Origin: Shigella phage ESh19 | Sequence record: ON528729 | Strand: one strand, 5' to 3' | Length of the DNA stretch: 64,000 nt | In this document: piece after piece, positions 44,076-44,634 of the stretch | Layout: every line of letters starts with the position of its first letter | How positions within the stretch are numbered: the stretch's first letter is position 1 | Translations under genes and position numbers: made by a program | Notes under the pieces: model-generated | The model's input: the letters and a program-made list of their open reading frames with translations, nothing else | What the model was told of the DNA's origin: nothing | The model's database searches: none

Positions 44076-44151
44076 TGGCGGGGGATGATGGAATTGAACC
44101 ATCTTCTTCGATTTCAAAGACCGAGGTTTTAACCTTGTAAACTAATCCCCT
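44076..44151 (-). tRNA. tRNA-Gln (TTG)
   Basis: D-stem GTTT/AAAC, anticodon stem TCGGT/ATCGA loop CTTTGAA, T-arm GATGG-TTCAATT-CCATC. Confidence 0.6.
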
Positions 44152-44377
44152 AACGAACTCTTGTCAGGATATATGCGTTATTACATGTATCCTTATTTTC
44201 TGGTAACATTGTTTCAAAGATAACTTGCTTGAGTTCTAATCCAGCAAAGTTGTAGACAATCTTTTTAACTTCGAGTGGGTCAGCTTTCCAGCCAACTCTA
44301 ATAAAGAATGTATCTCCAAGCCTTCCTGTTTCAAGTTTGTCATCTTCTTGGTGTTTTTCAACTATAAGTCTAAACAT
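44150..44377 (-). CDS. hypothetical protein (75 aa) between tRNAs
   Basis: ORF track; RBS AGGGTAG before ATG. Confidence 0.4.
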   Translation of the reverse strand: MFRLIVEKHQEDDKLETGRLGDTFFIRVGWKADPLEVKKIVYNFAGLELKQVIFETMLPENKDTCNNAYILTRVR

Positions 44378-44395
44378 AAGCTACCCTATTAAATT

Positions 44396-44472
44396 TGGTG
44401 CAGAATAGAGGATTCGAACCCCTAACTAACAACTTCGTAGGTTGCTGCTCTGTCCATTTGAACTAATTCTGC
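44396..44472 (-). tRNA. tRNA-Arg (ACG)
   Basis: Acceptor GCAGAAT/ATTCTGC perfect, anticodon stem GCAAC/GTTGT loop CTACGAA, T-arm AGGGG-TTCGAAT-CCTCT. Confidence 0.7.
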
Positions 44473-44634
44473 AATATCCTTTTGAGATTCCTGTCTAGCT
44501 CTCTTCTTATCTCTTCTGAGAAAGCGTTTACGATGGTCTGTGCGCCATTTGTAATAATCTTCTTCACCATCATGTGCTGCACAGCAGCCACAACTTGCAA
44601 TTTCAACTTTACCATGTCTACCATAAGGCTTCAT
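44422..44634 (-). CDS. small Cys-rich protein (70 aa as read; 3' end overlaps tRNA-Arg)
   Basis: Strong RBS AGGAG 7 nt before ATG 44634; SCGCCAAH motif; last 17 codons overlap tRNA 44396..44472. Confidence 0.3.
   Translation of the reverse strand: MKPYGRHGKVEIASCGCCAAHDGEEDYYKWRTDHRKRFLRRDKKRARQESQKDIAELVQMDRAATYEVVS

What the first reader, a model, noticed from the sequence alone, without database searches (positions are those of the whole stretch)
44150..44634. Small proteins embedded in the tRNA island, one overlapping tRNA-Arg
The ORF beginning at 44634 has a consensus RBS (AGGAG) and a Cys/His cluster (SCGCCAAH), but its last 17 codons run into tRNA-Arg (44396..44472) and its RBS abuts the 3' end of the tRNA at 44651. 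The 75-aa ORF 44150..44377 also has an RBS. Their mRNAs would have to be liberated by tRNA processing.
Basis: seen in the sequence. Interest (0 to 1): 0.4.

Follow-up and report, generated by a model that had tools for sequence, protein, structure and literature searches.

The report
Small phage genes wedged between tRNAs
Two small protein genes of unknown function sit between tRNA genes of a Felix O1-like (Mooglevirus-type) phage, and one runs into the next tRNA only because an old 82-base deletion removed its own end, which is ordinary gene erosion in a crowded tRNA cluster and not a new coding trick.

Summary
A 70-codon ORF (44422..44634, minus strand) starts 6 nt after an AGGAG that lies 5 nt past tRNA-Leu(caa). 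Its last 16 codons and TAG stop lie inside tRNA-Arg(acg). A 75-codon ORF (44150..44377) fills the next gap, and its TAG shares 2 nt with tRNA-Gln(ttg).

Both are real genes under purifying selection (pN/pS about 0.16 and 0.15-0.28). Both are already annotated as hypothetical proteins in relatives (PHROG 10765 and 14202).

The overlap is a deletion scar. Some relatives carry an 80-aa version with its own TAA 1 nt before tRNA-Arg. Felix O1-type phages keep only the start plus a diverged copy of that tail. wV8-type phages have an empty 5-nt spacer. The window lacks 82 nt between TGC microhomologies. Distant homologues (60-63 aa, not in tRNA clusters) show that the retained 54 codons are essentially the whole conserved domain.

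ORF75 is the orphaned first half of a two-gene module whose second gene (DUF7338) is absent here.

Expression is probably from the tRNA-operon transcript. RNase P cleavage at tRNA-Arg would remove ORF70's stop, as was proposed for T4 segB. Protein functions remain unknown. This is a new member of a known kind, of modest interest.

The parts
44651..44728 (-). tRNA-Leu(caa), the upstream neighbour. Its encoded CCA ends at 44651.
   Evidence: ARAGORN; Rfam tRNA 44.0 bits
44641..44645 (-). Shine-Dalgarno AGGAG of ORF70, 5 nt after the tRNA-Leu 3' end and 6 nt before the ATG. It is invariant in the 16 sequences aligned and unchanged in the contigs read.
   Evidence: Sequence; alignments
44473..44634 (-). 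Native part of ORF70: 54 codons, MKPYGRHGKVEIASCGCCAAHDGEEDYYKWRTDHRKRFLRRDKKRARQESQKDI. It has an N-terminal CGCC motif followed by a basic helix, and it covers essentially the whole domain conserved in distant 60-63-aa homologues.
   Evidence: PHROG 10765, E=1.1e-52; codon-position bias 4/4/16 and pN/pS 0.16, p=1.9e-5; remote homologues; AF2 helix 33-79
44422..44472 (-). Read-on tail of ORF70: 16 codons (AELVQMDRAATYEVVS) plus TAG, all encoded by the 5' two-thirds of tRNA-Arg. It varies only where the tRNA varies.
44470..44476 (-). Deletion junction. Relative to the 80-aa allele, 82 nt (25 codons, TAA and 1 nt) are missing between two TGC microhomologies (ATAtTGCtaAa / ATAaTGCagAa).
   Evidence: Alignment with Silverhawkium and contigs L020-L025
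44396..44472 (-). tRNA-Arg(acg), intact. Its 5' end (the RNase P site) coincides with the boundary between codons 54 and 55 of ORF70.
   Evidence: ARAGORN; Rfam 58.3 bits, model positions 1-71
44384..44387 (-). Weak Shine-Dalgarno-like AGGG, 6 nt upstream of the ORF75 ATG.
   Evidence: Sequence. Other alleles have AAGG or AGGGG at the same place.
44150..44377 (-). ORF75, a small protein of PHROG 14202. Here it is the orphaned first gene of a two-gene module; the DUF7338 partner is absent from the window. Its TAG stop shares 2 nt with tRNA-Gln(ttg).
   Evidence: E=9.9e-38; tblastn homologues at 32-49% identity in Felixounavirus and Avunavirus; pN/pS 0.15-0.28, p about 1e-9; module structure; no DUF7338 in the window
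44076..44151 (-). tRNA-Gln(ttg), the downstream neighbour of ORF75.
47910..47939 (-). Best sigma-70-like promoter match (TTGACA-18-TATAGT with TG, 11 of 12), just upstream of the first tRNA of the island. It is the putative operon promoter.
   Evidence: pattern scan only; the total number of sites is not above the shuffle expectation
42620..42637 (-). Terminator-like hairpin plus T-run downstream of the last tRNA (tRNA-Cys). It is the putative end of the tRNA/ORF transcription unit.
   Evidence: pattern scan only

Best explanation
The window comes from an Ounavirinae (Mooglevirus-like, Felix O1-related) phage. Its tRNA island is a hotspot where small accessory genes are inserted, swapped and eroded in the spacers between tRNAs.

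ORF70 is a real gene for a small protein with a Cys-rich N-terminus (invariant CGCC) and a long basic helix. The ancestral gene was 80 codons long, with its own TAA 1 nt before tRNA-Arg. In the lineage of this window, an 82-nt deletion between TGC microhomologies removed the last 25 codons and the stop. Ribosomes must therefore read on through the first 48 nt of tRNA-Arg to a fortuitous TAG in its variable-loop/T-arm region. The 54 retained codons are the conserved domain and are still under purifying selection. The 16-residue tail is a by-product.

ORF75 is likewise a real small gene. It is the first half of an ORF75-DUF7338 module whose second gene has been deleted here, which brings its TAG onto the first bases of tRNA-Gln.

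Inferred, not shown: both ORFs are transcribed as part of the long tRNA precursor from the promoter upstream of the island and are translated from internal ribosome-binding sites. For ORF70, translation to the stop and RNase P maturation of tRNA-Arg are mutually exclusive on any one transcript. Processed transcripts become non-stop mRNAs whose 54-aa product would be handled by tmRNA or ArfA rescue. Output is therefore probably low and largely co-transcriptional, as proposed for T4 segB.

The biochemical functions are unknown. My best guess is a metal- or nucleic-acid-binding host-takeover factor for ORF70 and a partner or regulator of the DUF7338 membrane protein for ORF75.
For: Coding status of ORF70. 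There are 11 distinct haplotypes. The 24 substitutions fall 4/4/16 by codon position, with 14 synonymous and 10 non-synonymous changes, pN/pS 0.16, p=1.9e-5. The only indel is an in-frame codon loss in Sf14, and the AGGAG and ATG are invariant. Variants private to the truncated alleles still give pN/pS 0.19, p=0.008. The ORF is intact in all 41 phage records that carry it.

Protein family. PHROG 10765 matches. Remote homologues of 60-63 aa (40-49% identity over residues 1-58) occur in small-gene arrays without tRNAs, one on a 77-kb contig with an SU10-type portal gene. Residues M1, K2, P3, G5, K9, E11, A13, C15, G16, C17, C18, R31, K43 and A46-R47-Q48 are invariant in the seven full-length sequences aligned.

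Deletion polarity. The 80-aa allele with its own TAA is present in Silverhawkium and in the contigs found for P0004 (10 read, 6 shown). Felix O1, Z31 and about 26 records have the same RBS and ATG followed by a diverged homologue of the tail: 16 of 27 aa identical, 62 of 95 alignment columns identical at the DNA level, z=7.5. wV8 and UAB_69 have only the 5-nt spacer ATTTT.

ORF75. PHROG 14202 matches. Full-length homologues at 32-49% identity occur in Felixounavirus and Avunavirus and are followed, with overlapping stop and start codons, by DUF7338. pN/pS is 0.15-0.28. The slot between tRNA-Arg and tRNA-Gln has five states: empty, ORF75, two copies of ORF75, DUF7338, or both genes.

Transcription. 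The strong promoter-like site is upstream of the island only, and a terminator-like site follows it.

Precedent. T4 segB is part of the tRNA precursor transcript, and tRNA-Arg maturation cuts between its last sense codon and its stop codon (PMC2330249).
Against: There are no expression data of any kind (no Ribo-seq, proteomics or transcript mapping) for these ORFs. Searches for such data on Mooglevirus or Felixounavirus found nothing.

The promoter and terminator calls are consensus scans, and the total number of sites is not above the shuffle expectation.

The 82-nt tail is 100% identical in all seven 80-aa alleles, although their 5' parts differ at 10-11 sites. That would also fit a young allele spread by recombination. 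Only the Felix O1 tail homologue argues decisively for antiquity.

Much of the polymorphism is shared between the long and short alleles, so part of the purifying-selection signal may predate the deletion.

Both genes are dispensable at the lineage level. ORF70 is absent from wV8-type phages. ORF75 is absent from Michonne-type phages and is frameshifted by a 1-nt deletion in the closest relative, KMM2, although a sequencing error is not excluded.

No function could be assigned.
Confidence: 0.75

Rival explanations
1. The truncated ORF70 of this window is a dead relic. After losing its stop codon it no longer makes a useful protein and survives only because it is short and young.
For: The gene lost its native 3' end and stop. 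The same slot shows other erosion products: a 35-aa remnant in Felix O1 and complete loss in wV8. RNase P processing would make the mRNA non-stop (geometry). Several GenBank records do not annotate the ORF.
Against: All 41 records keep an intact ATG, RBS and open frame, and the only indel is in frame. Variants private to the truncated alleles are still biased towards synonymous changes (6 synonymous to 5 non-synonymous against 30 synonymous and 132 non-synonymous sites, p=0.008). The retained 54 codons equal the whole domain conserved in the 60-63-aa remote homologues, which lack the tail naturally.
Confidence: 0.15
2. The overlap is a selected regulatory device. Translation into tRNA-Arg and RNase P maturation compete, so that production of ORF70 protein and supply of tRNA-Arg(acg) are tuned against each other, or tmRNA tagging deliberately limits the protein.
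For: The tRNA 5' end coincides exactly with a codon boundary. The truncated form is the majority allele among Mooglevirus and Suspvirus records. A similar negative-control idea was proposed for T4 segB. An 8-9-bp pairing can sequester the Shine-Dalgarno sequence.
Against: The geometry is fully explained by a microhomology-mediated deletion. Felix O1's remnant also runs into the tRNA, but in a different register (10 nt) because of a 2-nt indel, which shows that such read-ons arise by accident. The tail changes only with compensatory tRNA changes. The Shine-Dalgarno pairing is only marginally better than shuffles (p about 0.02) and is absent in remote homologues.
Confidence: 0.07
3. The 178-nt spacer is not protein-coding. 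It is instead a structured RNA, a degenerate tRNA, or a gene on the opposite strand (the 86-aa ORF 44482..44742 on the plus strand).
For: The fold z-score is -1.94. Other gaps in the island hold tRNA-like remnants.
Against: No Rfam match at E<=1 lies in 44473-44650. Sixteen of 24 substitutions fall on the third codon position of the minus-strand frame, which is position 1 of the plus-strand ORF. Protein-level homologues exist at 40-49% identity in unrelated genomic contexts.
Confidence: 0.03

Closest known systems
Phage T4 segB within the T4 tRNA gene cluster (Brok-Volchanskaya et al. 2008, PMC2330249)
   Same: A protein ORF lies between same-strand tRNA genes and has no promoter of its own. 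It is transcribed as part of the tRNA precursor. Maturation of the downstream tRNA-Arg cuts the ORF from its stop codon, which was proposed to lower expression. ORF75 (TAG shared with tRNA-Gln) matches this geometry almost exactly. ORF70 is a more extreme case, with 16 codons inside the tRNA.
   Different: segB is a GIY-YIG homing endonuclease that drives its own spread. ORF70 and ORF75 have no nuclease or other Pfam domain. In addition, the ORF70 overlap can be shown here to be a secondary deletion scar.
Mitochondrial 'tRNA punctuation' (mRNAs flanked by tRNAs and released by RNase P/Z, with overlapping or incomplete stop codons); established knowledge
   Same: Coding regions abut or overlap tRNA genes on one precursor, and tRNA processing defines the ends of the mRNAs.
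   Different: In mitochondria, processing is required, and incomplete stops are completed by polyadenylation. Nothing comparable is known in E. coli phages, and here processing would destroy the ORF's end, not create it.
E. coli mixed tRNA-mRNA operons (thrU-tyrU-glyT-thrT-tufB; tyrT-tpr, which encodes a small basic protein); my own knowledge, not tested here
   Same: Protein genes are co-transcribed downstream of tRNAs and translated from internal ribosome-binding sites. tpr, like ORF70, is small and very basic.
   Different: Those ORFs have their own stop codons and do not overlap a downstream tRNA. No sequence similarity was found or tested.
Phage accessory-gene ('moron'-like) indel hotspots, and homing-endonuclease insertions in tRNA clusters of T4, T5 and Ounavirinae
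   Same: Presence or absence varies between close relatives at fixed slots. In the tRNA-Arg-to-tRNA-Gln slot there are five states. An HNH endonuclease occupies another slot in Michonne.
   Different: ORF70 and ORF75 are not endonucleases. Their shuffling appears to use microhomology supplied by the tRNAs themselves (GTTAGGGG).

Membership tests
PHROG 10765 (ORF70 family, function unknown) | Full-length match to the family HMM | tested here: met
   E=1.1e-52, residues 1-70 against profile positions 1-70 of 70. The profile includes the tRNA-encoded tail, so it was built from truncated alleles.
PHROG 14202 (ORF75 family, function unknown) | Full-length match to the family HMM | tested here: met
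   E=9.9e-38, residues 1-75 against profile positions 1-75 of 76. The wV8 and Av-05 homologues match the same family.
ORF embedded in a phage tRNA operon (T4 segB type) | Located between same-strand tRNA genes, with its stop codon at or inside the downstream tRNA so that 5' maturation of the tRNA severs it | tested here: met
   Geometry: the ORF70 stop lies 48 nt inside tRNA-Arg, and the ORF75 TAG shares 2 nt with tRNA-Gln.
ORF embedded in a phage tRNA operon (T4 segB type) | Transcribed only as part of the tRNA precursor (no promoter of its own), and actually cleaved by RNase P | not testable with these tools
   Only a consensus scan is available: a strong site at 47939-47910 and none in front of ORF70. 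No transcript data were found.
Homing endonucleases (GIY-YIG / HNH) of phage tRNA clusters | Nuclease domain recognisable by sequence | tested here: not met
   No Pfam, NCBIfam or PADLOC hit at E<=10. The proteins are only 70-80 aa long.
Zinc-finger / zinc-ribbon small proteins | Four conserved Cys/His ligands in a recognisable spacing, or a match to a zinc-finger family | tested here: not met
   Only C15, C17 and C18 are invariant. H21 is Y or P in some members and H7 is N or S. There is no family or PDB match. The AF2 N-terminus has low confidence. Metal binding itself was not tested.
Bacterial lipoprotein signal peptide (IASC resembles a lipobox) | A hydrophobic h-region before the Cys, and G, A or S at position -1 | tested here: not met
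   The h-region is only VEIAS and contains a Glu. Homologues have K or P at position -1.
ORF75-DUF7338 two-gene module | An ORF75-like gene followed, with overlapping stop and start codons, by a DUF7338 (PF24027) gene of about 185 aa | tested here: not met
   The module is present in HP1, wV8, UAB_69, Av-05 and 19-1-2. The window has no DUF7338 anywhere (tblastn). The ORF75 stop abuts tRNA-Gln instead.
Structured RNA / tRNA-like element in the 178-nt spacer | A match to an Rfam model, or folding clearly better than shuffles | tested here: not met
   No Rfam hit at E<=1. The fold z-score is -1.94, and 5 of 200 shuffles fold as well.

The most novel reading that the evidence does not exclude
The read-on of ORF70 into tRNA-Arg has been co-opted as a switch. 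On each precursor molecule, either a ribosome unfolds the 5' half of tRNA-Arg and completes the protein, or RNase P matures the tRNA and condemns the mRNA to non-stop rescue. The phage would thereby couple the dose of a small CGCC/basic-helix factor to tRNA-processing capacity. A more speculative version is that the ORF70 family acts on tRNA or RNA processing itself.
Probability: 0.07. Interest if true: 0.55.

Novelty: new member of a known kind. Interest (0 to 1): 0.25.

Why it matters
For annotation, the result shows that CDS/tRNA overlaps in Ounavirinae genomes are real genes with eroded ends and should not be discarded as artefacts. It also shows that PHROG 10765 was built from a truncated allele whose last 16 residues are tRNA-derived.

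For biology, the locus offers a clean natural allelic series at one slot: full gene, 3'-truncated gene, 5'-deleted remnant, and empty spacer. This series could be used to test how tRNA maturation by RNase P competes with translation of embedded ORFs, and what happens to the resulting non-stop messages in phage-infected cells. That idea was proposed for T4 segB, and I found no experimental test of it.

The result also illustrates that tRNA sequences themselves provide the microhomologies at which small accessory genes are shuffled. None of this is very surprising to a phage genomicist.

Tried and rejected
- Function assignment: Pfam, NCBIfam and PADLOC gave no hits for ORF70/80 or ORF75. For the partner gene, Pfam gave only DUF7338 (function unknown), and NCBIfam and PADLOC gave nothing. 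A profile search of PDB sequences gave only noise.
- Structure: the AF2 model of the 80-aa form has mean pLDDT 66, with a low-confidence N-terminus and one long helix. The AF2 model of ORF75 has pLDDT 67. Foldseek against PDB and BFVD found nothing beyond its own family.
- Source of the 82-nt tail: blastn and tblastn within the window and the fetched loci found none, so a duplication origin is rejected. For a moment I read the first Felixounavirus tblastn hits as translated tRNA-Leu. This was rejected once the loci were fetched, because the hits lie in a 114-nt spacer between tRNA-Leu and tRNA-Arg.
- Lipoprotein signal idea (IASC lipobox): rejected on h-region and position -1 residues.
- Structured-RNA idea: rejected.
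- Shine-Dalgarno-sequestering long-range helix: only marginal, and not conserved in remote homologues.
- Co-transfer of ORF75-DUF7338 with tRNA-Gln(ttg) between Ounavirinae and Avunavirus: the two tRNA-Gln genes share little beyond the acceptor stem, so a recent transfer as one unit is not supported.
- Literature: searches for transcriptome or proteome data on Mooglevirus or Felixounavirus tRNA-island ORFs, and for DUF7338, found nothing usable.

Full report
**Context.** The window carries 25 tRNA genes, all on the minus strand, between 42795 and 47882 (ARAGORN; confirmed by Rfam). They lie next to a terminase-like ORF. blastn of 44100-44700 finds 297 phage records, almost all Ounavirinae. The closest are the Mooglevirus records Citrobacter phage BSwM KMM2 (98%) and Shigella phage SFPB (97%). 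The window is therefore a Felix O1-related, Mooglevirus-type myophage.

**Observation.**
- ORF70 is 44422..44634(-), 70 aa. AGGAG (44645..44641) lies 6 nt before the ATG and 5 nt after the CCA end of tRNA-Leu(caa) at 44651.
- tRNA-Arg(acg) (44396-44472; Rfam 58.3 bits, intact) begins exactly at codon 55. Sixteen sense codons and the TAG are therefore tRNA sequence.
- ORF75 is 44150..44377(-), with a weaker AGGG 6 nt upstream.

**Are the ORFs real genes?** Yes.
- For the 54 pre-tRNA codons of ORF70, I aligned 16 sequences (the window plus 15 loci from relatives) and found 11 distinct haplotypes. The 24 substitutions fall 4/4/16 on codon positions 1/2/3. Fourteen are synonymous although only about 30 of the 162 sites are synonymous (pN/pS 0.16, binomial p=1.9e-5).
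- The only indel is the loss of one whole codon in Sf14. The AGGAG and ATG never vary.
- The variable positions are position 1 of the antisense 86-aa ORF, which rules that ORF out. Rfam finds nothing in the spacer, and its folding is only marginally better than shuffles (z=-1.94).
- ORF75 gives 28/17/51 and pN/pS 0.15-0.28 (p about 1e-9). It has full-length homologues at 32-49% identity in Felixounavirus and Avunavirus.
- Both ORFs belong to existing PHROGs (10765 and 14202) and are annotated as hypothetical proteins in several GenBank records, for example KPS64 gp88 and gp87 and Michonne gp87.

**Why ORF70 overlaps the tRNA.** The slot between tRNA-Leu(caa) and tRNA-Arg(acg) exists in four states.
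1. Silverhawkium and metagenome or 'plasmid' contigs (10 read, 6 shown) carry an 80-aa gene that ends ...IAKDFRESVLSRRDTNEELKLYGVLIG-TAA, 1 nt before tRNA-Arg.
2. The window and most Mooglevirus and Suspvirus records lack exactly 82 nt. The deletion is flanked by ATAtTGCtaAa / ATAaTGCagAa, so the frame runs on into the tRNA.
3. Felix O1, Z31, EC6 and about 26 records have a 114-nt spacer with the same RBS and ATG, four codons, and then a diverged homologue of the tail (MSNNSIAKKFRASYLNRRKNKVCEKLYGVLVGKQD*). Sixteen of 27 aa are identical, 62 of 95 DNA alignment columns are identical, and z=7.5 against shuffles. A 2-nt indel there puts the TAA out of frame, so this remnant also reads 10 nt into tRNA-Arg.
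4. wV8 and UAB_69 have only the spacer ATTTT.

The tail is therefore older than the split between Felixounavirus and Mooglevirus. The 80-aa gene, or at least a tail-bearing form, is ancestral, and the window's allele is a 3' deletion derivative. One caveat remains. The tail is 100% identical in all seven long alleles although their 5' parts differ at 10-11 sites. The surviving long alleles therefore share a recent 3' segment, and recombination is rife.

**Is the truncated gene still functional?** Probably.
- An exhaustive HMMER search and a profile search found only a handful of relatives. Among them are 60-63-aa proteins at 40-49% identity covering residues 1-58. They sit in arrays of small genes without tRNAs, one on a 77-kb contig with an SU10-type portal gene.
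- Their natural length shows that the conserved unit is MKP[YF]G..GK.E.A.CGCC...R...K..ARQ, about 58 residues. The window retains almost all of it.
- Variants private to the truncated alleles are still biased towards synonymous changes (6 synonymous to 5 non-synonymous, p=0.008).
- AF2 predicts a poorly defined N-terminus and a long helix from residue 33 onward.
- No family, fold or defence-system match gives a function.

**ORF75 and its slot.**
- In Felixounavirus, in HP1 and in Avunavirus, the ORF75-like gene is followed, with overlapping stop and start codons, by a roughly 185-aa DUF7338 (PHROG 2143) gene and then tRNA-Gln(ttg).
- Av-05 and 19-1-2 were scanned here, and the module lies inside a tRNA island there too, although the records annotate no tRNAs in the stretches fetched.
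- The slot has five states among relatives: empty, ORF75, two copies of ORF75, DUF7338 only, or both genes.
- The window has no DUF7338 anywhere.
- Where two ORF75 alleles sit in tandem, they are separated by a 3' fragment of tRNA-Arg. The stops of both ORF70 and ORF75 lie in the shared motif GTTAGGGG. The tRNAs themselves therefore supply the recombination microhomology.
- In KMM2, ORF75 is frameshifted by a 1-nt deletion.

**How it probably works (inferred).** The only strong sigma-70-like site (TTGACA-18-TATAGT) is at 47939-47910, upstream of the first tRNA. A terminator-like site follows the last tRNA. This fits one long precursor, as in T4, where segB mRNA is part of the roughly 1.75-kb tRNA precursor and tRNA-Arg maturation cuts between its last sense codon and its stop, proposed as negative control (PMC2330249).

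Here, internal ribosome-binding sites allow translation without processing. RNase P cleavage at 44472/44473 would leave ORF70 without a stop codon. From established knowledge of E. coli ribosome rescue, the 54-aa product of such a non-stop mRNA would be tagged by tmRNA or released by ArfA or ArfB. Complete 70-aa protein can therefore come only from transcripts that have not yet been processed. For ORF75, cleavage would fall inside the stop codon.

**Verdict.** This is a new, well-resolved example of a known kind: accessory ORFs embedded in phage tRNA clusters whose ends collide with the next tRNA. The genes themselves are already catalogued as hypothetical. What this analysis adds is the deletion-scar explanation and the allelic series. 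Interest is modest.

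Noticed in passing
L008 1758-2254, L012 1758-2254, L021 1840-2339: Some relatives carry two diverged ORF75 alleles (about 63% identical to each other) in tandem. A 3' fragment of tRNA-Arg (TAGGGGTTCGAATCCCTTATTCTGCACC) separates them. This points to unequal recombination at the motif GTTAGGGG, which occurs both in the tRNA-Arg T-arm and at the junction between the ORF75 stop and tRNA-Gln.
   Followed up: partly
L017 (Escherichia phage Av-05) 1-3207; L018 (phage 19-1-2): The ORF75-like plus DUF7338 pair also lies inside a tRNA island of Avunavirus (Vequintavirinae), upstream of a tRNA-Gln(ttg). ARAGORN finds 9-10 tRNAs there, although the GenBank records annotate none in the stretches fetched. 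The tRNA-Gln shares little beyond the acceptor stem with the Ounavirinae tRNA-Gln.
   Followed up: partly
window 44484-44491 with 44638-44645: An 8-9-bp pairing (GAGAUUCC with GGAAUCUC) could sequester the Shine-Dalgarno sequence of ORF70 against codons 48-51. It is stronger than about 98% of shuffles. Both arms are invariant, so covariation cannot be tested, and remote homologues lack it.
   Followed up: partly
window 46903-46977 (-) and 47246-47326 (-): Rfam reports extra tRNA-like matches that ARAGORN does not call: 29.6 bits (just at the gathering threshold) and 22.8 bits. The second lies where Felix O1 has a 'pseudo-tRNA-Tyr' between Asn and Asp. These are probably degenerate or unusual tRNAs.
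   Followed up: no
window 45831-45905 (-): A tRNA-like remnant with an acceptor-like GGGACGA...TCCGTCCCA and a GGTTCGAATCC T-arm. It has only a weak Rfam match (18.5 bits to tRNA-Sec), no ARAGORN call and unremarkable folding. A 55-aa ORF (45714..45881) overlaps it.
   Followed up: partly
window 42971-43705 (-): A roughly 245-aa DUF7217 'putative membrane protein' gene is also embedded in the island, between tRNA-Phe and tRNA-Ser(gct). Its stop codon lies 1 nt before the tRNA-Ser 5' end, so tight ORF-tRNA packing is a general feature of this island.
   Followed up: no
L029 (Citrobacter phage BSwM KMM2), aligned to window 44140-44400: The closest relative has a 1-nt deletion in a CCC run that frameshifts ORF75. 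KMM2 and SFPB also have one G fewer at the tRNA-Gln 5' end (TAGGGATTAG). Whether this is a genuine pseudogene or a homopolymer sequencing error is unresolved.
   Followed up: partly
L021 (CP164854.1, 88,055 bp): A record deposited as an Escherichia coli 'plasmid' carries the Mooglevirus-type tRNA island with the 80-aa allele. It looks like a complete phage genome assembled with a bacterial isolate.
   Followed up: no
L002 (Michonne) 2473-2925, corresponding to window gap 45306-45558: Michonne carries an HNH endonuclease gene between tRNA-Leu(tag) and tRNA-Ser(tga). The window has only a 253-nt gap there. This is another variable slot of the island and a possible driver of local gene conversion.
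   Followed up: no
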